Shown here: positions 728-22,652 of the stretch, in pieces
Numbering within the stretch: the stretch's first letter is position 1
Layout: every line of letters starts with the position of its first letter
Assembly (NCBI GenBank): GCA_964472605.1
Contig: CAYYLG010000001.1
Coordinates: forward strand, 11,119 to 66,160
DNA from: an uncultured Candidatus Saccharibacteria bacterium
Lineage (GTDB): Bacteria > Patescibacteriota > Minisyncoccia > Phycocordibacterales > CAIZIN01
Length of the DNA stretch: 55,042 nt
Direction of reading: 5' to 3'
Notes under the pieces: generated by a model
What the model was told of the DNA's origin: nothing
Database searches by the model: none
Seen by the model: only the letters and a program-made list of their open reading frames with translations
Translations under genes and position numbers: made by a program

Positions 728-1334
728 GGGGCCGACCGGTTTCGACGGGGGCAACAGAGATTGGAACTGCAAGCGGAGCATGTCGCATCATCTCCTAAAA
801 CTGTGTGGCAACCAATTAAACGGCGCTGACACTTCTCTCGCTGTTGCTGCCTAATTAGGCGGCTTGGGTTCTAGCCGACCTCGAAACAGAATGGCTAGTG
901 ACTGATGGAAAGTCATCGGACTGAGGGAAAGACCTCTGACGCCCTGGAAAGACTGGTGGTGGATCGGGAGAGGTCACACTCTCTGCCCTTGACGGTGGGA
1001 AAGACCACAACCTTGTTAGTGGGTTAAACTAACTAAGCTTGTAGGGGTTCTAATCAACGGGTTCTCGGACAGGGGTTCAATTGTAATGGTTGCTTTACTT
1101 CGAAAGAAGTATTGAAAAACTGGGTGAATTCAGGGAAAGCTAAGTTCTTTTAAGAATATGCCAATCCTGAGCCAAGCTATCAGTACACTGGTAGAAGGTG
1201 CAGAGACTACTGGAGAGATTAAGTCCTCTTAATAACCAGCTAGAGCGCCCAGCGTCCTAACGTAAAGACGAGGATGAAGAGATAGTCCAAGCCAAATTGA
1301 AAAATTTGGATAACTTGTCCCCTCGGCTCCACCA
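728..1334 (+). ncRNA. ssrA: tmRNA (transfer-messenger RNA), intron-interrupted
   Basis: The 5' end is GGGGCCGACCGGTTTCGACGGGGG. Acceptor 728-734 pairs with 1324-1330, including G3:U70, and CCA is encoded at 1332-1334. The tag reading frame 807-854 gives GNQLNGADTSLAVAA followed by TAA. The T stem AGGGG 1071-1075 / CCCCT 1319-1323 is split by 236 nt. Confidence 0.85.
1082..1317 (+). mobile_element. group I intron (ORF-less) in the tmRNA T-loop
   Basis: Removing it restores the 7-nt T-loop TTCAATT. The 5' exon ends in U (CAAT can pair with GTTG 1089-1092, with a U.G wobble at the splice site). The last intron nucleotide is G1317. There are two GAAA-capped hairpins (1096-1111, 1292-1309). P7-like strands are present: CAGAGACTA 1201-1209 and GATAGTCC 1281-1288. 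A CAGGGAAAG element is also present. Confidence 0.7.
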
Positions 1335-1356: not shown

Positions 1357-1398
1357 GGCTCCAGAATGTAATAGAAATGCATTCTGGAGCCTTTTATT
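1357..1398 (+). terminator. rho-independent terminator after tmRNA
   Basis: GGCTCCAGAATG...CATTCTGGAGCC forms a 12-bp stem and is followed by TTTTATT. Confidence 0.75.
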
Positions 1399-1911
1399 AT
1401 GGAAGTTAAATGTGAAAATTGCAATAAGTTGTTCAGTAAAAAGAAAGCGGAAATAACAAGATCTAAAAGACATTTTTGTTGTTTAAGCTGCTCTGTTACT
1501 TGGAATAATAGAAACACAAAAAGAGTTGGTGGTCAAAAAACTTTTATAGTAAAATATGCTAGTAATAAAAAAGACGATTACACACACTTTAGATTTTTTA
1601 AGAAATGTAGTAAAAATTCAAATAGAAAAGAAAGTAAAATAACTTTAAAGGATTTGAAAGATTGTTGGAATAAACAAGATGGAATTTGTCCTTATACTGG
1701 AATTAAATTAATTCTTCCTATTAGTACAAAAGGTTTTGATCCAGTAGTTTCAAAAATTTATAGAGCAAGTCTAGATCGAATTGATAGTTCTAAACCATAT
1801 GAAGTGGGTAACATACAATTTGTTTCGACTATGGCTAATTATGCCAAGAATAACTGTAGTCATGAAGAGATGATCAAGTTTTGTAAGGTAATAGCAGGCA
1901 ACTGGAAATAA
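1399..1911 (+). CDS. HNH/His-Me finger homing-endonuclease-like protein
   Basis: N-terminal CxxC...CxxC. The C-terminal motif SLDRIDSSKPYEVGNIQFVSTMANYAKN is paralogous to the C-terminus of ORF 21909-22652. Confidence 0.65.
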   Translation: MEVKCENCNKLFSKKKAEITRSKRHFCCLSCSVTWNNRNTKRVGGQKTFIVKYASNKKDDYTHFRFFKKCSKNSNRKESKITLKDLKDCWNKQDGICPYTGIKLILPISTKGFDPVVSKIYRASLDRIDSSKPYEVGNIQFVSTMANYAKNNCSHEEMIKFCKVIAGNWK

Positions 1912-1952
1912 TGGCCATGTGACTTGACTTACCCTCTTTTAGGTTGTAGTAT
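1912..1952 (+). promoter_or_regulatory. promoter, TGGCCAA-N-TTGAC class
   Basis: TGGCCAT 1912-1918, TTGACT 1924-1929, then a 17-nt spacer and TAGTAT 1947-1952. Confidence 0.55.
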
Positions 1953-1992
1953 TTACCTACTTGAGGGCGATTTCTTTTTTGGATCAATAAAA

Positions 1993-3294
1993 TTGGCTAA
2001 AGATAAAAATCTTGGTATTCCTAAGTCTCAAATTGAGGAAGATTTTCCGGGTATTGAATGTGATTGGATCGAGGAAAGAGATCTTGAAGCTCAGTGGATG
2101 AAAACTTATAATGAAGTATTAGAGTTTGTAAAAGAAAATAAAAAACTTCCGCCAGACGATTCTTCTTATGGGCGTTGGTGTTCCACTCAAAGGACAGTTT
2201 TTAAAGGTAAATCAAGAGGAATATTGAATGAGAGAAGGGTTGATCTTTTAGAAAAACTTCCCTATAATGTTTGGTTTTGGGACTATAACAATAAAGCTTC
2301 TGCTGAACAACATCGTGAATGGATTCAGTTAGAAAAATGTGGGAGAGTTCAGTGGGAGAATGAAATTTGGAAAAAATATAAAAATCAAGGTGCATTATCT
2401 CATGCTTGTTCTAAATTTAATAAAGATTGGAACTGGTTTACTGGCATTCCAGACAAAGCTTCTGCTGAACAACATCGTGAATGGATTCAAAAAGAAAAAT
2501 GTTCTTGTGAAAAATGGAGAAAAAAAATTCATAAAAAATATTTAGATCAAGGTGCTGTTGTAGACCCTAGAAAAACATTTAATCTTCCTGCAAAATGGTT
2601 TATTAGAGAGATTAAATCATTAAAAGAACATGTAGAAAAAATAAGAGAATTGGGATGCGAAACACTCTCTCAATATAGGTTTTTATATAAAAAATTCTCT
2701 TTAAATGAGAATGATTTTATATTAGACGTAAAAAAATATTTCAAAAAAGACGATGAATATTTTACTGGTATTAAAAAAATACAACCAACATTTGAAAAAT
2801 ATATAAACTGGATGGTCGAAGAAAAATGTTATAGATACTATTCTTGGAAAAAATACTGGAAGAAGTACAGAGATCTTGGGGCGACAATTCTCCCTCATCG
2901 ACAATTGAATATTAGTGAGAAAACATTTCAAGATAAGCTAGACAAAGAATTAGGAAATAAACATGCTAGTGTAGATCAACATAGGGAGTGGATTTCAAAA
3001 GAAAGATGCACCATAAATGAATGGAGAACTATTATCTATAAAAAATACTCTCATCTAGGATCTCATTGTATGCCCGAGAAGTTGTATAACAAAAAACCAT
3101 CTTGGTTTACTGGGAACAAGGAGCAATGTAGGAGTAGAATTGTAAACTTGGATACAGGAGAAATTTTTGATTCTGTACCAGAAGCAGCCAACAAAACAGG
3201 GATCGGTAGATCCGGTATAGCTAACGTTTTATGCGGAAGGGCCAAAACCGCAGGTGGATATCGTTGGGAAAAGATCGAGGTCGAAGATGAGTAA
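1993..3294 (+). CDS. helicase-associated (HA) domain protein with ~54-aa internal repeats and a C-terminal NUMOD/IENR-like HTH
   Basis: The ORF is open from 1924, but a promoter overlaps 1924-1952, so the start was set at in-frame TTG 1993 (uncertain). An HA-like segment reads WMKTYNEVLEFVKENKKLP...WCSTQR...LLEKL. The repeated module is ASAEQHREWIQ.EKC...KKY..G. The C-terminus FDSVPEAANKTGIGRSGIANVLCGRAKTAGGYRW resembles DNA-binding tails of phage homing endonucleases. Confidence 0.6.
   Translation: MAKDKNLGIPKSQIEEDFPGIECDWIEERDLEAQWMKTYNEVLEFVKENKKLPPDDSSYGRWCSTQRTVFKGKSRGILNERRVDLLEKLPYNVWFWDYNNKASAEQHREWIQLEKCGRVQWENEIWKKYKNQGALSHACSKFNKDWNWFTGIPDKASAEQHREWIQKEKCSCEKWRKKIHKKYLDQGAVVDPRKTFNLPAKWFIREIKSLKEHVEKIRELGCETLSQYRFLYKKFSLNENDFILDVKKYFKKDDEYFTGIKKIQPTFEKYINWMVEEKCYRYYSWKKYWKKYRDLGATILPHRQLNISEKTFQDKLDKELGNKHASVDQHREWISKERCTINEWRTIIYKKYSHLGSHCMPEKLYNKKPSWFTGNKEQCRSRIVNLDTGEIFDSVPEAANKTGIGRSGIANVLCGRAKTAGGYRWEKIEVEDE
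2293..2502 (+). repeat. in-gene tandem duplication (162-nt period)
   Basis: The 35-nt string AAAGCTTCTGCTGAACAACATCGTGAATGGATTCA is identical at 2293-2327 and 2455-2489. AGAAAAATGT is also shared just downstream. Confidence 0.85.
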
Positions 3295-3988: not shown

Positions 3989-6084
3989 TAAGCAAAAGAA
4001 ATGATTTTACTGGTAGGCGTGGTGTTGTCAGTAGACACAAAGTGTGGACTGATAAAAAAGCTATCCAGGAATTAATCAATAGTTTTTCATCTGAAGTTAA
4101 AGTTCTTCGTCCTTGGCAACAGAAGGCTTATAAAGTATATTCAGAAATGGATTGCAGACATTTTAGAATTCGTGCTTCTACTGGAAGTGGAAAAACTCTT
4201 CTTGCTAAAGCATTAATACTTAAATATTTGGAAGATAATCCGAACTGTATAGCTATTGTATCAGTTCCTCTTCTTGCTGTTTCATTTGGTTTTACAAAAA
4301 AAGAATCATTTAAGCTTGATAAAAATACTATAAATATTAATAGTCTAATCCCGAGAAAAGAACATAATTTTGCAGCAGCAGAAGAATATGTTGGATGCGA
4401 TAGTAAAATGAAAGATTTTGAAAGGGCTATTAAAAGCAGGACCGGTGTGGCTGCTAAGAATAGAACTTTTATTATTAGTCATGCCATTCTTTCAAAATTA
4501 GATCCAAAAAAATTAGAAAATTGTTTACTTATAGTGGATGAAGTTCATCATTCACTTGCTGTAGACAATAATATTTGTAATGGTATTGGAAAAAGAATTT
4601 CTTATTGCTGTGAAAAGGCAGAAGAAAAAAATATTGCAATGATTCATTTGACTGCCACACCAATTAGGGCAGATGGTGGATCTCTTGTCCCTGAAAAATA
4701 TGATAAAGATTTTAAATGTTTTGATCTTTACACCAATGATCACTTATATGAAAATTGTGCTGGAATGAGTTTTACATATGATTATTTTTTTCATGAAGGT
4801 GATTATCTTGGTGAAAACGGAGCCATTTCTAAGTTTTATAGTTATGAAAAACTTCCTCCTACAATTATTATTTTTCCACATACAAGTAGTACAAAATATG
4901 CCCCCTTTATCAAAGATAAAGAAATGTGGGTTAGAAAATCTATTGAAGCTATTGTTGGAAGAAAAATTTCAACAAAGAAAATATATACTAAAAAAGATGG
5001 AAAAGATAACAATCCTGATGTTCATGTGGATGAAGATGGAGTGATGAATATTCACAATGGTAAAAGGAATATTAGAATTGTTGATCTTTTAAACGGAGAA
5101 GGAGAAAATCAAAAACGAAGAAAAAAACTAACATCTTGGGTTTCTGACAGAAAAAATGGAGATACTGTTGATGTTGTTCTTGGCATGATGATTCCAAGGG
5201 AGGGATTTGATTGGGAAAGGGCAAGCAGGCTTATCCTTATTGGATATCAAAGTTCTCTTGTTCAAGTTCTCCAAATTATTGGTAGATTATTTAGGTTTCA
5301 TGAAGAAAAACTAGCAAATGGAAACATTGTTCAAATGTGTCAACTTTTCCCTTTTGTTGATCCTAAAAAATTAAAAGTAAACGAAATGGATTCAAAAGTT
5401 GGAGATTTTATGAATACTATTTTAATGTCAATGGTTATTGAAGCTATTTTTTCACCTCCAAACATTATTTATAAAATGAAAGGAAAGGAGAATAAAAAAA
5501 TACAAAAAAATAATGTTATGACTATTTTTATCAATAAGATTGGTGAAAGTAAAGCAATTTCAATTATCAACAAGTGCTTTTTAGAAGTTCTTATTGTAAA
5601 AAATATGTTTGCTCATAAAACAGAAACAGAAAAAACATCTATTCTTAAAAAAAGATTGTTTCAAATTCTTGGCGATCATAATGTCCCTACTGATTTAAAA
5701 GAACTAATGGTGGACTGTGTTGTTCAAATTGATAAAAATAGATCTTTTAATTCAAAAAAGATTATTTCTCCTAAACCAGGAATGGATGTCTCTGATCTTG
5801 AAGATATAGATACATTAAATAAGGTTATTTCTGGTGAGTGGGTAGAGCACTATTCAAATACGACTGACATAAAACTTCTTGATAGAATTCAAATAAGACT
5901 TACAAAAAGTAGGAATATGTTTAAATATCGTGAAATGAAAAAATGGTTTGATGCACATGGTAAAAGAAGACCCAATTCCAAATCTTCTGATCCAGAAGAG
6001 GCAAAACATGGAAAATTTTATGATTATATTTTAAAAAAGGAAAAGCAATCTCAAAGAAGAGGAGAGGAGTTCATTTTAAGATGA
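3982..6084 (+). CDS. SF2 DEAD/DEAH-box (Res-like) helicase
   Basis: Motif I ASTGSGKT, motif II LIVDEVHH, motif III LTATPIR, motif VI QIIGRLFR. Confidence 0.8.
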   Translation: MLISKRNDFTGRRGVVSRHKVWTDKKAIQELINSFSSEVKVLRPWQQKAYKVYSEMDCRHFRIRASTGSGKTLLAKALILKYLEDNPNCIAIVSVPLLAVSFGFTKKESFKLDKNTININSLIPRKEHNFAAAEEYVGCDSKMKDFERAIKSRTGVAAKNRTFIISHAILSKLDPKKLENCLLIVDEVHHSLAVDNNICNGIGKRISYCCEKAEEKNIAMIHLTATPIRADGGSLVPEKYDKDFKCFDLYTNDHLYENCAGMSFTYDYFFHEGDYLGENGAISKFYSYEKLPPTIIIFPHTSSTKYAPFIKDKEMWVRKSIEAIVGRKISTKKIYTKKDGKDNNPDVHVDEDGVMNIHNGKRNIRIVDLLNGEGENQKRRKKLTSWVSDRKNGDTVDVVLGMMIPREGFDWERASRLILIGYQSSLVQVLQIIGRLFRFHEEKLANGNIVQMCQLFPFVDPKKLKVNEMDSKVGDFMNTILMSMVIEAIFSPPNIIYKMKGKENKKIQKNNVMTIFINKIGESKAISIINKCFLEVLIVKNMFAHKTETEKTSILKKRLFQILGDHNVPTDLKELMVDCVVQIDKNRSFNSKKIISPKPGMDVSDLEDIDTLNKVISGEWVEHYSNTTDIKLLDRIQIRLTKSRNMFKYREMKKWFDAHGKRRPNSKSSDPEEAKHGKFYDYILKKEKQSQRRGEEFILR

Positions 6085-6953
6085 TTACTAAATCTATTAT
6101 TGAAGAGGATTTTCCTTGTATTTCACAAGACTGGCTTTATAGTCTTGATAAAACTTGGTATTTATATTTAGAAAGACTAAAACATATATTAAAACAAAAT
6201 GAAAATAAGATTCCTTCTGTTCATTCAAAAAATGAAGAAGAACGAATAGTAGCAGCATGGTGTAATAATCAAAGACAAAAAAGAAAAAAGGGAATTCTTT
6301 CCCAAGAAAAAATTAATATTCTTAATAATATTGATGCTTGGTATTGGGAAACCGAAGATTTTTATAATAAATGGAAAAAAACTTATGAAGAAGTAAGTAA
6401 TTTTTTGAAATTAAATAAAAGAAATCCATCTATTACTTCTAAGAATCTTGATGAAGTAAGAATTGCAACTTGGTGTCATCGTCAAAGGGCTTTAAAAAAA
6501 AAGTATGATGATATTTCTAGAAAAAATAGAGGGATAATGGATCAAAATAGAATAAATCTTCTTGAAAAATTGCCAGGATGGACTTGGGCATTAGAAGATA
6601 AATGGGATATTAATTTTGAAAAATTTAAAAAAGTAGTTGAAGAAAAAAAGAGACTTCCGATGAAGGGTGAGCACCTTTATAATTGGATGCAAACTCAGAA
6701 AAAAGCTTATGTAGGAAAGGGACAGGGCGCTTATATTGATGAGTATAGAAAGAGTAAGTTAGAGTCAATTAAAGAATGGATTTGGTGTAATAAAAAAATT
6801 GTATGGAAAAACTTAGATACAAATAAAGAATTTATGTCTTCTAAAGATGCTGCTGAATCTGTTGGTATTAAATACCCAAATATAATTCTTGCAGCAAAAA
6901 ATGGTAGAAAAGCAGGTGGTTATCGTTGGGCTCGAATAGAAGTGGCCGAATAA
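6081..6953 (+). CDS. protein with three helicase-associated (HA) repeats and a C-terminal NUMOD/IENR-like HTH
   Basis: Three repeats follow the pattern W..Y..L......P........W...QR....G.L......LL....W.W. The C-terminus FMSSKDAAESVGIKYPNIILAAKNGRKAGGYRW parallels the end of ORF 1993-3294. Confidence 0.65.
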   Translation: MITKSIIEEDFPCISQDWLYSLDKTWYLYLERLKHILKQNENKIPSVHSKNEEERIVAAWCNNQRQKRKKGILSQEKINILNNIDAWYWETEDFYNKWKKTYEEVSNFLKLNKRNPSITSKNLDEVRIATWCHRQRALKKKYDDISRKNRGIMDQNRINLLEKLPGWTWALEDKWDINFEKFKKVVEEKKRLPMKGEHLYNWMQTQKKAYVGKGQGAYIDEYRKSKLESIKEWIWCNKKIVWKNLDTNKEFMSSKDAAESVGIKYPNIILAAKNGRKAGGYRWARIEVAE

Positions 6954-7225: not shown

Positions 7226-7375
7226 GGGAGTGATCCACTATTGGTATCGTGGTTGTCGCCAAAAAACGGCACGGTAGGGTAGCAGAAACGAATGATATAC
7301 TAGTCCATTTCATTTGAATCTGTCCGAAATGGGGGACAAGCCTGTTCCTTGTGGGTTCAATTCCCACCACTTCCA
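7226..7375 (+). tRNA. aberrant 150-nt tRNA-like gene (acceptor, D and T arms canonical; anticodon domain unresolved)
   Basis: The acceptor GGGAGTG / CACTTCC has G3:U70 and discriminator A, with no encoded CCA. The D arm is CCAC-TATTGGTATC-GTGG. The T arm is GTGGG-TTCAATT-CCCAC. About 95 nt lie between them and contain hairpins TGTCG/CGGCA (8-nt loop CCAAAAAA), CCATTTC/GAAATGG (14-nt loop) and GGGGACA/TGTTCCT. Confidence 0.5.
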
Positions 7376-7391
7376 ATTTAAAAGATTAAAA

Positions 7392-12605: not shown

Positions 12606-12683
12606 TGCGGGGTGGAGCAGTCCGGTTAGCTCGGGTGGCTCATAACCACCAGGTCGAGGGTTCAAATCCCTCCCCCGCTACCA
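12606..12683 (+). tRNA. tRNA-Met (CAU), initiator-like
   Basis: Aligns almost base-for-base with E. coli tRNA-fMet as I recall it. Features: 1:72 mismatch (U:U), A11:U24, anticodon loop CTCATAA, T-loop TTCAAAT, encoded CCA. Only 2 of the 3 G:C pairs in the anticodon stem are present. Confidence 0.85.
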
Positions 12684-14013: not shown

Positions 14014-14143
14014 TGTGAGGCTAGAATGCGCTGTAAAGAAGGCTATAAAAGGGATAAATCAGATAGTCCCCGAATAGGAAAATGGTTAAAATTTTATTTC
14101 CTCAAAAGAACTTGTAGGAAAAAATCATTGAAGGAGAAAGAAT

Positions 14144-14861
14144 ATGAAAAAGAACAAAGATAAATCCTGGAGGTGTCTTTGACACCATTCAAATTTTGAT
14201 CCAACCCGGAGAGGGTGGAAAAGATTCTCAGTTATTTGCTGAAGATCTTTCTAGCATGTATCAAAAACATGCAAAGAGACATGGGCATGAAGCTCGAATA
14301 GTCTCTAGTACGACCAAACAAATTCAATTAGAGGTCGTTGGTAAAAATCCTTGAAGAGCATTCCGGTTTGAAGCCGGACTTCATAGAGTACAAAGAGTTC
14401 CTCCAACTGAAAAGGGTGGTAGAACTCATACTTCTATTATAACCGTAATTGTTCTTAAACAAAAAGAACAAAAGCCAATTGAAATTGATAAAAAAAATGT
14501 CGTAGTAAGTTACTACAAAGATTCCGGCGCTGGTGGCCAGCATAGAAATAAAACAATGTCTGGTGTTCGGTTACAATATTCAGGTATAACTATTGAATGT
14601 TGTGATACAAGAGATCAGAGAAAAAATAAAGAAATAGCCTTCGAGCGTTTGGAAGAAAAACTTAAGCAAAGGGAGCTTGGAATTGAAAGAGAAAAAAAAG
14701 AAAGAGAAATGTCCAAGCAAAATCCCAATTGTGGTAAGCGTGGAAATTTCTTAAGGAACTACAACTACATGAGAGATGAAGTTTCACAAGACGGTAACAA
14801 ATATAAGCTCTCTCAATTTTTGAGAGGAAATCTGGAGAAGCTTTATGGTGAAGCCGTCTAA
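14144..14861 (+). CDS. class-I peptide chain release factor, N-terminally truncated; needs a +1 frameshift at 14177-14183 and decoding/readthrough of in-frame TGA 14352-14354
   Basis: Assembled as join(14144..14179,14181..14861). Motifs: QPGEGGKDSQLFAEDL, GLHRVQRVPPTEKGGRTHTS (RF1-type PxT), SGAGGQHRNKT (GGQ), RDQRKNKE, RNYNY. AAGGAG lies upstream of the ATG. Confidence 0.75.
14169..14183 (+). promoter_or_regulatory. prfB-type programmed +1 frameshift cassette
   Basis: GGAGG-TGT-CTT-TGA-C has the same architecture as the E. coli prfB site AGGGGG-TAT-CTT-TGA-C: an internal SD, a 3-nt spacer, then CUU UGA C. Confidence 0.75.
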
Positions 14862-16281: not shown

Positions 16282-17874
16282 ATGATAAAAGGAAAATCTA
16301 GTTTAGATGGAACTCCAATTGAAAAACTGTCTGATTATAGTAGAAAAAAAATAATAAAAATTTGTGATGATTGTAAAATAGAACTACAAATTTCTTATTG
16401 TGATTTAATTTTATCAAGAAAAAAAAGAAAAAGTGATATTGATAGATGTCATAAATGTGCAATGAAAAATCAAAGTGGAGAAAACAATCCTTCTAAAAAA
16501 CAAAATACTAGAAAAAAAATTAGTGAAAAATTAAAAGGTAAAAGTAAAAGATTTAAAAAAGGTTTTAATCCAAGAATACATACAATCAGAATAAACACAG
16601 CAGGTTATGTACTTGTTCATGATTATAAAAATAACAAAAAAGAATTCGAGCACAAATTAATTATGGAAAAAAATATAAAAAGAAAACTAAAAGGGAAAGA
16701 ACAAATCCATCACATTGATGGTGATAAAAAAAATAATAATATAGAAAACTTACTTTTAGTTAATGATGCTTCAGAGCATATGAAAGTTCATTCTCAAATA
16801 GAAAATTTATTTTTTGAATTATATAAAAAAAATATTGTTTATTTTGATAATGAAAACAAATCGTATAAATTAAATCCTCTTATAGAATTGAGTAGGTTTG
16901 AAGAAAGTCTTGGATTTGAAAATATAGCAATAAAACAAAAAAAGCAAATATGTGTTTCAAGATTAGATGTAAATTTGAAAAGTGAAGTAATAAGGGATGT
17001 CTTTTTAGATGTTCCTATGATGGCTGCAAACATGAGTACGGTAACAAATGCTGAATTCATTATTAAGCTTTCAAAATTAGGTGCAATGGGTGTAATGCAT
17101 CGTGCATGTTCTGATGAAGAAATTTTATCTTCTATAGAAAAAATTTCAAAAGAATGTGAATGGGTTGCAGGCTCTATTGGTGTATCAAACAAAGATATTG
17201 ATTTATTTAAAAATATGATTATTAATGGTTGTAATATCATATTTATAGACATTGCACATGGTTATAGTGAAGCTGTTTTTGATATGGCTAAAAAAATAAA
17301 AAAGTATTCTCCCTTAACCAAAGTTGTTGTTGGAAATACAACAAATATAAATATGCTTTATGAATGTTATGAATTTATTGATGCGATAAAAGTTGGTATA
17401 GCTCAAGGTTTTGCTTGTGAAACAAAAAATACTGCTGGTTGTACTGAAAAACAATTTTCTGCTATTTATAAATTTAAAGAAGTTTCTAAAAAACTAGAAG
17501 TTCCAATTATTTCTGATGGAGGAATCAGAGAACCTTCGGATTTCGTTAAAGCTATTGGGGCTGGAGCGAATTCTATCATGGCGGGAAAAATATTTGCAGA
17601 ATGTCCTGAGAGTGCAGCAGAACTTGGAACAGACAAAAATAATAATCCAATAAAAATTTATGCAGGAATGGCATCACAATATATTCAAGAAGCTTGGAAA
17701 GGCGGTGTTAAAGAAGGAACTTGTACTGAAGGTGGTGTTCGGTATTTGTCACTTGGGTTGCCAATTAATAAAATGCTTGAAAAATACTCTGGTGCATTGA
17801 GATCTGGGATAACTTATGCAGGAGCAAAAGATATTAAATCTTATCAAAATAATGTTGAATTTATTAAAATATAA
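16282..17874 (+). CDS. guaC: fusion protein: N-terminal HNH endonuclease domain + GMP reductase/IMPDH-family TIM barrel
   Basis: Residues ~1-190 carry CxxC...CxxC and HHIDGDKKNNNIENLLLVNDASEHMKVH. Residues ~200-530 are collinear with GuaC from its N-terminus (LGFENIAIK, VPMMAANM, IDIAHGYS, VVGN, catalytic-Cys loop GIAQGFACETK, ISDGGIR, IMAG). Confidence 0.75.
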   Translation: MIKGKSSLDGTPIEKLSDYSRKKIIKICDDCKIELQISYCDLILSRKKRKSDIDRCHKCAMKNQSGENNPSKKQNTRKKISEKLKGKSKRFKKGFNPRIHTIRINTAGYVLVHDYKNNKKEFEHKLIMEKNIKRKLKGKEQIHHIDGDKKNNNIENLLLVNDASEHMKVHSQIENLFFELYKKNIVYFDNENKSYKLNPLIELSRFEESLGFENIAIKQKKQICVSRLDVNLKSEVIRDVFLDVPMMAANMSTVTNAEFIIKLSKLGAMGVMHRACSDEEILSSIEKISKECEWVAGSIGVSNKDIDLFKNMIINGCNIIFIDIAHGYSEAVFDMAKKIKKYSPLTKVVVGNTTNINMLYECYEFIDAIKVGIAQGFACETKNTAGCTEKQFSAIYKFKEVSKKLEVPIISDGGIREPSDFVKAIGAGANSIMAGKIFAECPESAAELGTDKNNNPIKIYAGMASQYIQEAWKGGVKEGTCTEGGVRYLSLGLPINKMLEKYSGALRSGITYAGAKDIKSYQNNVEFIKI

Positions 17875-21908: not shown

Positions 21909-22652
21909 ATGTCTAAAACAATTGGAAGTAAAAAAAGAATATATAATAAATTTAATCTTTCAAAAGAAATACTTAAAAAAGAATATAAAAAAATTGGTAA
22001 TTGTAAAAAAATAGGAGAAAAATATGGATATTCTGAAACAACAATAAGAAAGTGGATGAGAAAATTCAATATTTCTTTTAGAAAAACTTGGGATAGAGGT
22101 GGACACAATATATTTCCAATTAAAGGAAAACGTTTTGGAAAATTAGTTGTTTTAGAAAAACAAGAAAGAAGAGAGTTTGACAATACGGAAGCAAAATGGA
22201 TTTGTCAATGTGATTGTGGAAATAAAATTATTACAGGAAGTAATAGATTAAGAAAGGGGTTGACTAAAAGTTGTGGATGTTTAAGGTCTGATAGATTGAC
22301 ATATAATTCTGTTGGAGACCTTTCTCATGCATATTGGTCAAGAATAGTTAAAGGTGCAAAAATTAGATCTTTAGATTTTGATATTACACCAGAATACTGT
22401 TGGGATTTATTTGTAAGACAAAATAAAAAATGTGCATTGACAGGAGAAGATATATTTTTATTAAATCCTTATTCATCTCAACAAACAGCATCACTTGATC
22501 GAATTGATTCTTCAAAAGGTTATACAAAGAAAAACATTCAGTGGGTTCACAAAGCAATTAATAGATTAAAAAACAGTTTGTCAGAATCTGAATTAATTGA
22601 TTGGAGTAAAAAAATTCATGAGTTTCAAAACAGTAAAAGATCTAACGGATGA
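21909..22652 (+). CDS. HNH homing endonuclease with N-terminal HTH
   Basis: GGAGG lies upstream of the ATG. Motifs CQCDCGN...SCGC and SLDRIDSSKGYTKKNIQWVHKAINRLKN. Confidence 0.75.
   Translation: MSKTIGSKKRIYNKFNLSKEILKKEYKKIGNCKKIGEKYGYSETTIRKWMRKFNISFRKTWDRGGHNIFPIKGKRFGKLVVLEKQERREFDNTEAKWICQCDCGNKIITGSNRLRKGLTKSCGCLRSDRLTYNSVGDLSHAYWSRIVKGAKIRSLDFDITPEYCWDLFVRQNKKCALTGEDIFLLNPYSSQQTASLDRIDSSKGYTKKNIQWVHKAINRLKNSLSESELIDWSKKIHEFQNSKRSNG

What the first reader, a model, noticed from the sequence alone, without database searches (positions are those of the whole stretch)
728..1334. Phage-borne tmRNA gene split by a group I intron in its T-loop
**tmRNA hallmarks**
- The 5' end reads GGGGCCGACCGGTTTCGACGGGGG.
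- The acceptor stem 728-734/1324-1330 has the alanine G3:U70 pair, and CCA is encoded.
- The tag ORF ends ...ADTSLAVAA-TAA.

**The interruption**
- The T stem halves (AGGGG 1071-1075, CCCCT 1319-1323) are 236 nt apart.
- Excising 1082-1317 restores a 7-nt T-loop, TTCAATT. This is the same T-loop as in the tRNA-like gene at 7356-7362.

**Group I traits of the insert**
- U at the 5' splice site can wobble-pair with G in GTTG 1089-1092.
- The terminal nucleotide is G1317.
- Two GAAA-capped hairpins are present.
- P7-like strands (CAGAGACTA / GATAGTCC) resemble the Tetrahymena core as I recall it.

As far as I know, intron-invaded tmRNA genes have been reported only rarely (a clostridial case). 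I am not aware of one on a virus.
Basis: partly seen in the sequence, partly recalled or inferred. Interest (0 to 1): 0.8.

Follow-up and report, generated by a model that had tools for sequence, protein, structure and literature searches.

The report
Intron-split tmRNA gene in a phage

Summary
Rfam finds a group I intron (109 bits, 1068-1309). It also finds a tmRNA whose 3' T-arm and acceptor half is missing (62 bits, 735-1083). ARAGORN sees nothing in the raw DNA. After removal of 1082-1317 it calls a 371-nt tmRNA with tag GADTSLAVAA.

The restored 3' end is identical over 28 nt to at least 42 natural uninterrupted tmRNAs. The intron (236 nt, no ORF, -1 U, omega G) has a full P1-P9 core, supported by covariation across 38 related viral introns.

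The rarity claim is out of date. The tmRNA database lists 883 unique intron-form tmRNAs in 21 phyla, mostly at this same T-loop subsite (position 7). I also found split tmRNAs in other viral sequences: the 735-kb phage LR756501, several IMG/VR contigs and RefSeq crAss-like phages. Hence: a new member of a known kind, in a setting I could not find described in the papers searched.

One addition. The ORF just downstream (1399-1911) belongs to a zinc-finger/PacI-like endonuclease family. This family recurs next to tmRNA genes, or inside their introns, in otherwise unrelated phage contigs. That suggests a homing element that targets tmRNA genes.

Phage origin is inferred from gene content; no structural gene lies in the window.

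The parts
728..1081 (+). tmRNA 5' exon. It holds the acceptor 5' strand (728-734), the D-like region, the pseudoknot region and tag, and the 5' half of the T stem (1071-1075) plus T-loop nucleotides 1-6 (1076-1081).
   Evidence: Rfam RF00023 at 61.9 bits over 735-1083; ARAGORN on the spliced sequence.
822..854 (+). Tag reading frame GADTSLAVAA plus TAA stop. The resume codon is GGC at 822. A strain variant reads GADTALAVAA.
   Evidence: ARAGORN tag at positions 95-127 of the spliced RNA; SNP T834G in L002-L004.
1078..1092 (+). P1. Exon CAAU 1078-1081 pairs with the internal guide GUUG 1089-1092. U1081:G1089 is the wobble pair at the 5' splice site.
   Evidence: Read from the sequence; the Rfam alignment places P1 here.
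1082..1317 (+). Group I intron, 236 nt, no ORF. Helices: P2 1096-1101/1106-1111 (L2 GAAA); P3 1120-1126/1246-1252; P4 1130-1135/1165-1170; P5/P5a 1139-1148/1153-1161; P6/P6a 1171-1183/1188-1199; P7 G1203 plus 1205-1209/1283-1288 (A1204 bulged); P7.1/7.2 1210-1223/1228-1239; P8 1253-1258/1271-1276; P9 1292-1298/1303-1309 (L9 GAAA). Omega G is 1317.
   Evidence: Rfam RF00028 at 109.2 bits; the minimum-free-energy fold recovers P2-P9, z = -3.15; covariation on 38 related introns.
1318..1334 (+). tmRNA 3' exon: T-loop nucleotide 7 (T1318), T stem 3' half 1319-1323, acceptor 3' strand 1324-1330, discriminator A1331, CCA 1332-1334.
   Evidence: Sequence; ARAGORN on the spliced sequence; the spliced 28-mer is identical to natural intronless tmRNA 3' ends.
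1357..1398 (+). Intrinsic-terminator-like hairpin (14 bp, 7 G-C pairs) followed by TTTTATT, between the tmRNA 3' end and the next ORF.
   Evidence: Terminator scan.
1399..1911 (+). 170-aa endonuclease-like ORF with an N-terminal zf-FCS-type zinc finger and a C-terminal PacI-like beta-beta-alpha-metal motif (DRIDS..Y...N). Candidate free-standing homing endonuclease linked to tmRNA genes.
   Evidence: PHROG endonuclease, endonuclease VII and HNH families; 159 homologues; PDB profile hits 2das (E 5.5e-4) and PacI 3ldy (E 0.05); recurrent adjacency to tmRNA genes.

Best explanation
Positions 728-1334 are a standard one-piece tmRNA gene, carried by a large uncultivated phage-like genome. A compact, ORF-less group I intron interrupts it between T-loop nucleotides 6 and 7.

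The proposed mechanism follows. Each step is marked as shown or inferred.

1. The precursor is transcribed and ends at the hairpin 1357-1391 (inferred).
2. The intron folds into a P1-P9 ribozyme (shown by model score and covariation).
3. An exogenous guanosine attacks after U1081, which sits in the U:G pair of P1. Omega G1317 then docks in the P7 pocket (G1203-C1288 / G1205-C1287), and the exons are joined (inferred from the group I mechanism).
4. This yields a 371-nt RNA with a normal tRNA-Ala-like domain: G3:U70, T-arm AGGGG-TTCAATT-CCCCT, and ACCA (shown in silico).
5. With the host's SmpB, AlaRS and EF-Tu, the RNA rescues stalled ribosomes and adds the tag GADTSLAVAA (inferred).

The intron is a selfish passenger that splicing makes harmless. 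The ORF at 1399-1911 is most likely a free-standing homing-type endonuclease whose family targets tmRNA gene 3' regions. It may help the locus, and perhaps the intron, spread during co-infection (inferred).
For: - Rfam gives Intron_gpI at 109.2 bits and tmRNA at 61.9 bits. The tmRNA match is truncated exactly at the intron.
- ARAGORN is negative on the unspliced DNA. On the spliced sequence it calls a tmRNA with tag GADTSLAVAA.
- The spliced 28-mer AGGGGTTCAATTCCCCTCGGCTCCACCA occurs uninterrupted in at least 120 metagenome contigs. In 42 of them ARAGORN calls a tmRNA ending at that 28-mer. Three representatives aligned in full share about 35 nt of the 3' domain and the 5' GGGGCCG..GGTTTCGACGGGG.
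- On 38 related viral introns, 81.6% of cells are paired against 62% in shuffles (0 of 500 shuffles reach it), and 34-40% when the partners are slid. P3 is 99.6% paired, P4 100% and P7 100%. Compensatory changes occur in P2, P3, P6a, P8 and P9.
- The minimum-free-energy fold recovers the helices.
- The subsite is the main known one, position 7.
- Strain variants have 3 exon SNPs and no intron SNPs, and all keep the intron.
- The same architecture occurs in other viral sequences. ARAGORN calls a tmRNA after splicing in LR756501, L038 and L102. L082, L111 and L113 fit by T-arm and acceptor structure only.
- For the endonuclease: homologues at 37-48% identity lie directly 3' of tmRNA genes in L113, L042, L148, L153, L154 and L150/L151. 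They lie antisense inside the split T-arm intron in L155 and cr128_1. Nothing else is shared between these loci.
Against: - There are no RNA data, so splicing is inferred.
- P1 has only 4 (perhaps 5) pairs, and P10 has at most one.
- No sigma-70-like promoter lies upstream of 728.
- No SmpB gene was found in the window, so function would depend on the host protein.
- ARAGORN labels the tag 'not identified'.
- No capsid, portal or terminase gene is in the window, and relatives are absent from INPHARED and IMG/VR.
- The endonuclease lacks the DHDH/CxxC residues of the characterised F-CphI family, and its PacI match is weak (E 0.05). Activity is therefore unproven.
- Homologues also sit beside intact, intronless tmRNA genes. 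The intron is therefore not required for the genome to tolerate the endonuclease.
Confidence: 0.88

Rival explanations
1. The tmRNA gene is dead. The intron no longer splices, or the RNA is processed into two pieces at other sites, so the locus is a pseudogene or a non-canonical two-piece tmRNA.
For: No expression data exist. P1 is short and P10 almost absent. Permuted two-piece tmRNAs do exist, and I found them in crAss-like phages.
Against: The intron scores 109 bits and retains every position that is invariant across the 38 aligned introns. Part of that invariance was imposed by the search pattern. The exons rebuild a T-arm and acceptor identical to those of working-type tmRNAs. The gene order here is standard, not permuted. 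The locus is conserved among strains, with no intron SNPs.
Confidence: 0.05
2. The contig is bacterial or belongs to another mobile element, so this is simply one more bacterial intron-form tmRNA and not a viral one.
For: No virion or packaging gene lies in the 55-kb window or in the 10-kb flanks I could read. There is no close relative in phage databases.
Against: - Nearly all sizeable ORFs lie on one strand, GC is about 30%, and there are dozens of small orphan ORFs.
- None of the window ORFs scanned against Pfam or PHROGs matched a ribosomal or other bacterial housekeeping family.
- PHROG hits include helicase, RNA ligase, a Thg1-like enzyme (found in 160 phage records), DNA polymerase exonuclease, dCMP deaminase, MazG, and several HNH endonucleases.
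- Contigs reach 120-207 kb with the same character.
- The same endonuclease-tmRNA pairing occurs in IMG/VR contigs, and the endonuclease lies inside the putative tmRNA intron of the RefSeq crAss-like phage cr128_1.
Confidence: 0.07
3. The ORF at 1399-1911 has nothing to do with the intron or with homing. It is an ordinary phage nuclease or host-takeover protein that merely lies downstream.
For: The catalytic motif is atypical: DRID instead of DHDH, and no CxxC. Pfam finds nothing. A paralogue at 21909-22649 also matches PHROG 'Srd anti-sigma / sigma-70 decoy' families. One homologue lies between tRNA-Ser genes rather than next to a tmRNA.
Against: Ten of the 13 homologue contexts examined have a tmRNA, or a split tmRNA T-arm, directly adjacent to or enclosing the ORF. 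The genomes share no other detectable protein. The ORF occurs in both orientations and also antisense inside the intron, which is typical of mobile endonuclease genes. The intron ORFs of cr4_1 and cr118_1 share its N-terminal zinc finger (hhalign probability 93%) but carry a canonical HNH domain.
Confidence: 0.25

Closest known systems
Intron-form bacterial tmRNA genes (first seen in Clostridium botulinum; 883 unique sequences in the 2025 tmRNA database, PMC11915505)
   Same: A group I intron in the T-psi-C loop at internucleotide position 7, with -1 U paired to G in P1, an omega G and a P7.1 region. It is mostly ORF-less and close in size (the database's 843 founding introns average 293 nt).
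   Different: The carrier here is a phage-like genome. That paper assigns its intron forms to bacterial phyla (plus one doubtful archaeal bin) and does not mention phage cases. The tag GADTSLAVAA is new to ARAGORN. I could not run that paper's tmRNA_intron model, so sequence-level kinship to the bacterial introns is untested.
Phage-encoded tmRNAs (79 unique in PMC11915505, including the CDS-less form of mycobacteriophage DS6A)
   Same: A tmRNA gene on a phage genome, among tRNA and RNA-repair genes. An intronless example from IMG/VR (L014) sits next to a tRNA array.
   Different: The paper does not say whether any of its 79 phage sequences is an intron form. This one needs splicing to mature.
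Cyanophage S-PM2 psbA intron plus the free-standing endonuclease F-CphI ('collaborative homing', PMC6083498)
   Same: An ORF-less group I intron in a conserved gene, with a small free-standing endonuclease gene directly beside it. The best phage BLAST match of the intron core is the psbA intron of cyanophage S-SRM01.
   Different: The endonuclease here lacks F-CphI's DHDH/CxxC signature (membership not met). Its cleavage site is unknown. Homologues also flank intronless tmRNA genes.
Group I introns in bacterial and phage tRNA anticodon loops (bioRxiv 10.1101/2020.01.27.920355)
   Same: The same compact ribozyme family invades tRNA-shaped genes. A close relative interrupts the anticodon loop of a tRNA(CAT) gene in Klebsiella jumbo phage Muenster.
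   Different: The insertion is in the T-loop, a site used only in tmRNA, which has no anticodon loop.
T4 SegB, a free-standing homing endonuclease in the T4 tRNA gene cluster (from memory, not checked here)
   Same: A free-standing endonuclease gene embedded among tRNA-type genes, which promotes preferential inheritance of that region.
   Different: SegB is a GIY-YIG enzyme. No functional data exist for the family found here.

Membership tests
tmRNA (Rfam RF00023) | Covariance-model score at or above the gathering threshold | tested here: met
   61.9 bits against a threshold of 47, for the 5' exon alone.
tmRNA (Rfam RF00023) | tRNA-Ala-like domain: 7-bp acceptor stem with G3:U70, discriminator A, CCA, and a T-arm with a 7-nt loop | tested here: met
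   728-734/1324-1330 with G730:U1328, and ACCA at 1331-1334. The T-arm is restored only after removal of 1082-1317. It is identical to the 3' ends of natural tmRNAs.
tmRNA (Rfam RF00023) | Internal tag reading frame with a resume codon and a stop, ending in hydrophobic residues plus AA | tested here: met
   GADTSLAVAA-TAA at 822-854.
tmRNA (Rfam RF00023) | Pseudoknots PK1-PK4 and the long P2 helix | tested here: inconclusive
   P2 and PK1 align with high posterior probability. The PK2-PK4 region aligns poorly and consists of repeated GGAAAG(A/T)C hairpins. No pseudoknot-aware test was run.
tmRNA (Rfam RF00023) | Alanylation, SmpB binding and trans-translation activity | not testable with these tools
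   No SmpB gene was found in the window.
Group I intron (Rfam RF00028) | Covariance-model score at or above the gathering threshold, over the full model | tested here: met
   109.2 bits against a threshold of 50, model positions 1-253.
Group I intron (Rfam RF00028) | -1 U in a U:G wobble pair at the end of P1, and omega G as the last intron base | tested here: met
   U1081:G1089 and G1317. This is the only choice that also restores a 7-nt T-loop.
Group I intron (Rfam RF00028) | Conserved core P3-P9, including the P3/P7 pseudoknot and the P7 G-binding helix with a bulged A | tested here: met
   The helices are mapped. P3 is 99.6% paired and P4 and P7 are 100% paired, with compensatory changes, over 38 homologues. 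Caveat: the homologues were picked with a pattern that fixes parts of P4, P6 and P7.
Group I intron (Rfam RF00028) | GTP-dependent self-splicing | not testable with these tools
   This needs an in-vitro assay or RNA-seq.
Intron-form tmRNA, T-loop position 7 (PMC11915505) | Intron between T-loop nucleotides 6 and 7 | tested here: met
   TTCAAT|T.
Group I subgroup IA3 (assigned to the first tmRNA intron; from memory) | Match to a subgroup-specific structure or model | not tested
   No subgroup models were available. A P7.1/7.2 extension, typical of subgroup IA, is present.
F-CphI / DHHRN (Endo VII-motif) homing endonucleases | A central DHDH flanked by CX2-4C and CX2C, plus the conserved R and N | tested here: not met
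   The family alignment shows an invariant D126-R127-I128-D129 and no flanking CxxC pairs in the C-terminal half. The motif definition comes from PMC6083498.
HNH / beta-beta-alpha-metal nucleases (PacI-like) | Significant profile match to a solved beta-beta-alpha-metal nuclease | tested here: inconclusive
   PacI 3ldy at E 0.05 over DRxDS..GY..N..N..K. PHROG HNH and endonuclease VII families at E 1e-8 to 1e-16.
Tailed phage genome | Virion or packaging hallmark genes (capsid, portal, terminase, tail) | tested here: inconclusive
   None in the window or the readable flanks. The gene content is otherwise phage-typical.

The most novel reading that the evidence does not exclude
Phage tmRNA genes are a hot spot for a guild of cooperating selfish elements.

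- Group I introns occupy all four T-loop subsites (2, 3, 7, 8) in viral tmRNA genes, in both standard and circularly permuted genes. The 'permuted plus intron' form, seen in crAss-like phages, is not among the three gene forms listed in the tmRNA database paper.
- A family of endonucleases guided by a zf-FCS zinc finger homes to the tmRNA 3' region. It occurs free-standing in either orientation, or nested antisense in the intron.
- In the window, the ORF-less intron and the neighbouring endonuclease would work as a 'collaborative homing' pair. The intron splits the endonuclease's target in the T-arm DNA and so protects the carrier genome. The endonuclease cuts intronless tmRNA genes of co-infecting phages, or of the host, and drives the copying of both elements.
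Probability: 0.35. Interest if true: 0.65.

Novelty: new member of a known kind. Interest (0 to 1): 0.4.

Why it matters
On its own, this is one more intron-form tmRNA at the usual subsite, so it does not change what is known about tmRNA or group I introns. Three things follow from it.

1. **Annotation.** ARAGORN misses such genes completely and Rfam sees only a truncated match. Phage tmRNAs are therefore undercounted. I recovered about ten further split viral tmRNAs, several of them in RefSeq crAss-like phages and in the 735-kb phage LR756501.
2. **Phage biology.** The RNA sits among translation and RNA-repair genes: tRNA-Met, a Thg1-like enzyme, RNA ligases, a release-factor-like gene and a second mini tmRNA-like RNA. 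This fits the idea that large phages take over ribosome rescue.
3. **Mobile-element biology.** The recurrent pairing of tmRNA genes with one endonuclease family gives a concrete, testable candidate for a new homing system aimed at a universally conserved RNA gene.

Tried and rejected
- **Close relatives of the phage.** Megablast of 16 kb against INPHARED found nothing. An exact 21-mer of the exon-intron junction found nothing in IMG/VR. A protein-guided locus search with the 456-aa neighbour found nothing. The helicase gave one 23%-identity hit.
- **Host or donor inferred from the tmRNA.** A 5' 23-mer matched four Sumerlaeota MAGs and one Hyphomicrobiales MAG. Overall identity is only 65-68%, no better than to unrelated tmRNAs. 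I rejected this as evidence of host.
- **Intronless allele of this same tmRNA.** The 28-mer scan found many intronless tmRNAs, but none above 67% identity over the whole RNA. The junction is validated, but intron mobility in this lineage is not shown.
- **Promoter.** No sigma-70-like site lies upstream of 728 beyond chance.
- **Exact splice site of the LR756501 tmRNA.** No boundary gives -1 U, omega G and a 7-nt loop together. Left open.
- **Rfam tmRNA models on the unspliced crAss-like and IMG/VR loci.** No hits at E below 0.01. Those calls rest on ARAGORN after splicing, or on T-arm and acceptor geometry only.
- **Membership of the endonuclease in the F-CphI family.** Rejected on motifs.
- **L033.** It looked like a T-loop intron in a tRNA-Ala gene, but the tRNA geometry does not close. 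Not pursued.
Full report
**1. The observation**

- The 5' end is tmRNA-like, GGGGCCGACCGGTTTCGACGGGGG.
- The acceptor helix 728-734/1324-1330 has G730:U1328 at the G3:U70 position.
- A1331 and CCA follow at 1331-1334.
- The short frame GGC GCT GAC ACT TCT CTC GCT GTT GCT GCC TAA lies at 822-854.
- The T-stem halves AGGGG (1071-1075) and CCCCT (1319-1323) are separated by an insert.

ARAGORN on the raw window reports only a tRNA-Met at 12606-12683 and no tmRNA. Rfam at gathering thresholds reports three things.
- Intron_gpI at 1068-1309: 109.2 bits, E 1.5e-27, full model.
- tmRNA at 735-1083: 61.9 bits, E 7.4e-22.
- The tRNA-Met.

The tmRNA alignment runs normally until the T-loop. It then lacks the 3' T-stem and acceptor strand, which is what a gene cut at that point would give. 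When I joined 728-1081 to 1318-1334, ARAGORN called a 371-nt tmRNA with tag GADTSLAVAA. The same stretch with the insert gave nothing.

**2. Splice sites**

T1082 and T1318 are the same base, so the exon sequence alone does not fix the boundary. The group I rules do. The last intron base must be G (G1317). The last exon base should be a U paired with G in P1, and U1081 pairs with G1089 within CAAU/GUUG. This gives a 236-nt intron at 1082-1317 and a T-loop TTCAAT|T. In the numbering of the tmRNA database paper this is internucleotide position 7, the main known site.

Natural sequences give an independent check.
- In 42 of them ARAGORN calls a tmRNA that ends exactly there.
- In 12 it calls a tRNA-Ala.
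- Many of the rest have GGGGCCG 348 nt upstream.

Aligned representatives share the whole tRNA-like domain with the window RNA but only about 67% identity overall. The junction therefore rebuilds a sequence that working tmRNAs use. I did not find an intronless allele of this particular tmRNA.

**3. Intron anatomy**

The minimum-free-energy fold (-65 kcal/mol, z = -3.15) recovers the helices.

| Element | Coordinates |
|---|---|
| P2 | 1096-1101/1106-1111, GAAA loop |
| P3 | 1120-1126/1246-1252 |
| P4 | 1130-1135/1165-1170 |
| P5/P5a | 1139-1148/1153-1161 |
| P6/P6a | 1171-1183/1188-1199 |
| P7.1/7.2 hairpin | 1210-1239 |
| P8 | 1253-1258/1271-1276 |
| P9 | 1292-1298/1303-1309, GAAA loop |
| P7 (pseudoknot) | G1203:C1288, bulged A1204, GACUA 1205-1209 / UAGUC 1283-1287 |

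To test the model I collected relatives with a gapped core pattern. I aligned 38 of them with the window and counted pairs.
- 81.6% of cells are paired, against 62.0% in shuffles (0 of 500 reach it) and 32-40% when partners are slid.
- P3 is 99.6% paired, and P4 and P7 are 100% paired.
- Compensatory changes occur in P2, P3, P6a, P8 and P9.
- The P7 pair G1203:C1288 alternates between G-C (21 sequences) and A-U (17).

One caveat applies. The search pattern fixed parts of P4, P6, P7 and J8/7, so invariance there is partly by construction. The covariation elsewhere is not. The intron has no ORF. P1 is short (4-5 pairs) and P10 almost absent; I note these as weak points.

**4. Is the carrier a phage?**

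The window is the last 55,042 bp of ENA contig ERZ27283041:k141_3575820, which is 65,195 bp long. Near-identical DNA occurs in contigs up to 120 kb, and one gene lies on a 206,854-bp contig.

Nearly all sizeable ORFs are on the + strand and GC is about 30%. The following families were recognised.
- a helicase
- an RNA ligase
- a fragment like a tRNA-splicing ligase
- an RlaP nucleotidyltransferase
- a Thg1-like enzyme
- a DNA polymerase exonuclease subunit
- dCMP deaminase, MazG and NUDIX
- a methyltransferase
- at least four HNH-type endonucleases

The Thg1-like protein has homologues in 160 phage records. No capsid, portal, terminase or tail gene lies in the window or in the flanks I could read. 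There is no close relative in INPHARED or IMG/VR. I rate 'large phage' as likely (about 0.9), but it is inferred.

**5. What is already known**

The 2025 tmRNA database paper (PMC11915505) lists 'intron' as one of three standard gene forms. It reports 883 unique sequences, all in the T-psi-C loop, mostly at position 7, and found in 21 phyla. Minor subsites 2, 3 and 8 are restricted to Anaerolineae, Bacteroidia and Saprospiraceae. An earlier preprint counted 343 such genes.

The same database holds 79 phage tmRNAs but does not say whether any is an intron form. Its supplementary table covers only bacteria and archaea. Searches for phage, viral or jumbo-phage tmRNA together with introns found no paper describing one. 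A 2026 study of gut jumbo phages reports about 18 group I introns per genome but contains neither 'tRNA' nor 'tmRNA' anywhere in its text.

**6. Other viral examples found here**

BLAST of the locus against phage genomes matched only the intron core. One match lies in LR756501, an unannotated 735-kb 'uncultured phage'. There a 96-bit group I intron splits a tmRNA T-arm. After removal of the intron ARAGORN calls a tmRNA with tag GDYKMNAEDMMSIPTSLTGKVATESFVEDLVLA. I could not fix its exact boundary.

I screened the flanks of 137 intron matches for a split T-arm plus an acceptor with G3:U70. This gave five more IMG/VR cases.

| Locus | T-loop position | ARAGORN after splicing | Note |
|---|---|---|---|
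| L038 | 3 | positive | Rfam tmRNA 49 bits next to the intron |
| L102 | 2 | positive | |
| L082 | 7 | negative | 669-nt intron with an antisense HNH ORF |
| L111 | 3 | negative | geometry only |
| L113 | 3 | negative | geometry only |

Other members of the intron family sit in cyanophage psbA (S-SRM01) and in the anticodon loop of a tRNA(CAT) gene of Klebsiella jumbo phage Muenster. The window's gene is therefore not unique among viruses. It is an example of an overlooked but recurrent arrangement.

**7. The neighbouring endonuclease**

Downstream of the tmRNA comes a terminator-like hairpin at 1357-1391, and then a 170-aa ORF at 1399-1911. It matches PHROG endonuclease, endonuclease VII and HNH families. 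Pfam finds nothing.

The large protein search found 159 homologues, all unnamed, and several on contigs of 100-360 kb. A profile built from 43 of them gave two matches in the PDB.
- The N-terminus matches a MYM/FCS-type zinc finger (2das, E 5.5e-4).
- The C-terminus matches the beta-beta-alpha-metal restriction enzyme PacI weakly (3ldy, E 0.05).
- The invariant residues are C5, C8, C27, C31, W90, Q93, G95, C97, D126-R127-I128-D129-S130, Y134, N138 and K150.

It lacks the DHDH/CxxC signature that defines the F-CphI family. I therefore do not file it there.

I examined thirteen homologue contexts, counting the window and treating the sister contigs L150 and L151 separately.

| Locus | Arrangement |
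|---|---|
| window | tandem after the intron-form tmRNA |
| L113 | tandem after an intron-form tmRNA |
| L042 | convergent, at the 3' end of an intron-form tmRNA |
| L148, L153, L154 | tandem after intronless tmRNAs (70-112 bits) |
| L150, L151 | convergent after long intronless tmRNAs |
| L155, crAss-like cr128_1 | antisense inside a group I intron that splits a tmRNA T-arm |
| cr6_1 | beside an intron of unknown host gene |
| cr56_1 | unresolved |
| L146 (Ardenticatenales MAG) | between two tRNA-Ser genes |

Across these loci the endonuclease is the only shared protein. The antisense ORFs inside the cr4_1 and cr118_1 introns are canonical HNH enzymes that share only the N-terminal zinc finger (hhalign probability 93%).

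This is the signature of a mobile endonuclease gene whose target lies in or next to the tmRNA 3' region. The closest worked example is cyanophage S-PM2. There the free-standing F-CphI cuts intronless psbA, and the adjacent ORF-less intron protects its own genome; this is 'collaborative homing' (PMC6083498). The same logic may apply here, but it is untested. Homologues sit beside uninterrupted tmRNA genes, so the intron is not obligatory for self-protection.

**8. Most likely mechanism**

- Shown: the gene has the tmRNA and group I features, and removing 1082-1317 restores a canonical tRNA-like domain.
- Inferred from the established group I pathway: guanosine attack after U1081, then exon ligation after omega G1317.
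- Inferred from tmRNA biology: charging with alanine through G3:U70, delivery by host SmpB and EF-Tu, and tagging with GADTSLAVAA.
- Speculative: why the phage carries it. Plausibly it frees ribosomes stalled on degraded host mRNAs. The translation and RNA-repair genes nearby are consistent with that, and so is a ClpP gene directly upstream of the tmRNA in two other endonuclease-linked loci.

**9. Verdict**

The novelty claim is overstated. This is a new member of a known kind, the position-7 intron-form tmRNA, in a viral setting that I could not find described but that recurs in public data.

Interest is moderate. The more original leads are the tmRNA-linked endonuclease family and the permuted, intron-split tmRNAs of crAss-like phages. 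Both lie beyond the finding as given.

Noticed in passing
window 7226-7376 (+): A second, 151-nt tmRNA-like or tRNA-like RNA. Its acceptor GGGAGTG/CACTTCC has G3:U70, and its T-arm is GTGGG-TTCAATT-CCCAC. The same AACTTT motif lies just 5' of it as at the real tmRNA. It has no CCA and no obvious tag. Rfam tmRNA scores 18.2 bits, E 0.0023; for the fold. It may be a CDS-less mini-tmRNA like that of phage DS6A.
   Followed up: partly
window about 14143-14861 (+): A release-factor-like gene: GGQ at 14532, a 'RVPPTE' PxT motif of RF1 type, and no N-terminal domain 1. A prfB-like +1 frameshift site (GGAGG-TGT-CTT-TGA-C) lies near its start. A second in-frame TGA at 14352 aligns, in my by-eye comparison with E. 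coli RF1 recalled from memory, to an aromatic position. This may be recoding or UGA-dependent regulation.
   Followed up: partly
L024 (crAss-like phage cr4_1, NC_055893) 1516/2271; L025 (cr118_1, MT774379) 1413/2173; L155 (reverse strand) 1861/2685: After removal of a 750-820-nt group I intron that carries an antisense HNH ORF, ARAGORN calls circularly permuted (two-piece) tmRNA genes. The tags are GNTSYVMDYTRLAA, GNNVNFFDYTLKVA and GNSYIADYTKLAA. The intron sits at T-loop position 8 (cr4_1, cr118_1) or position 2 (L155). 'Permuted plus intron' is not among the three gene forms listed in PMC11915505.
   Followed up: partly
L021 = LR756501.1 716709-719843 (reverse complement), tmRNA from locus position 1096, intron 1454-1685: The 735-kb uncultured phage has an unannotated tmRNA split by a group I intron in the T-loop, with a 33-aa tag and no encoded CCA. 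No boundary satisfies -1 U, omega G and a 7-nt loop together.
   Followed up: partly
L156 = crAss-like phage cr128_1 (NC_055885), reverse strand 836-2160: A split T-arm, GAGGG-TT | 869-nt intron | CGAAT-CCCTC, with acceptor GGGGCAT/ATGCTCC. The annotated 'endonuclease' (KNV43_gp101, a homologue of window 1399-1911) lies antisense inside the intron. ARAGORN and Rfam do not call a tmRNA, so this rests on geometry only.
   Followed up: partly
L022 = Klebsiella phage Muenster MT708547 302826-303130: An unannotated tRNA(CAT) gene in the tRNA array is interrupted in its anticodon loop by a group I intron of the same family (104 bits). An HNH endonuclease gene lies a few hundred bases downstream, beyond the next tRNA gene.
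   Followed up: partly
window 16282-17874 (+): A single ORF fuses an N-terminal HNH_3 endonuclease domain to a complete IMPDH/GMP-reductase domain. It may be a homing endonuclease inserted at the 5' end of a metabolic gene, or an unrecognised intron or intein boundary.
   Followed up: no
window 21909-22649 (+): A 247-aa paralogue of the tmRNA-linked endonuclease, which also matches PHROG 'Srd anti-sigma / sigma-70 decoy' families.
   Followed up: no
window 1924-3294 (+) and 6081-6953 (+): Two ORFs carry helicase-associated (HA) domains. The first also has an I-HmuI NUMOD-like DNA-binding domain. It is 456 aa here but 402 aa in strain variants L002 and L003, so the region just after the endonuclease varies between strains.
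   Followed up: no
L024 1-153, L157 2321-2442, L158 2286-2383 and 3030-3187: Rfam RAGATH-9, RAGATH-7-assoc and RAGATH-20 RNAs lie next to the intron and endonuclease loci of crAss-like phages. In cr6_1 the RAGATH-7-assoc RNA directly precedes the group I intron on the same strand, so it may be part of the interrupted RNA gene.
   Followed up: no
L148 696-1412 and L153 130-855: A ClpP protease gene lies shortly upstream of the tmRNA in two endonuclease-linked loci, followed in L153 by a DUF4326 gene. A (weak) DUF4326 gene also lies upstream of the window's tmRNA (L011 8979-9404). This hints at a functional link between the tag and a phage-encoded protease.
   Followed up: no
L016 and L018 (Sumerlaeota MAGs) compared with window 880-1010: The window tmRNA and Sumerlaeota tmRNAs share repeated GGGAAAGACC-type hairpins and a 'AACAGAA(T/G)' motif (window CGAAACAGAATGG; Sumerlaeota GGCAACAGAATGA / GGCAACAGAAGAG) in the pseudoknot region, although overall identity is only about 67%.
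   Followed up: no
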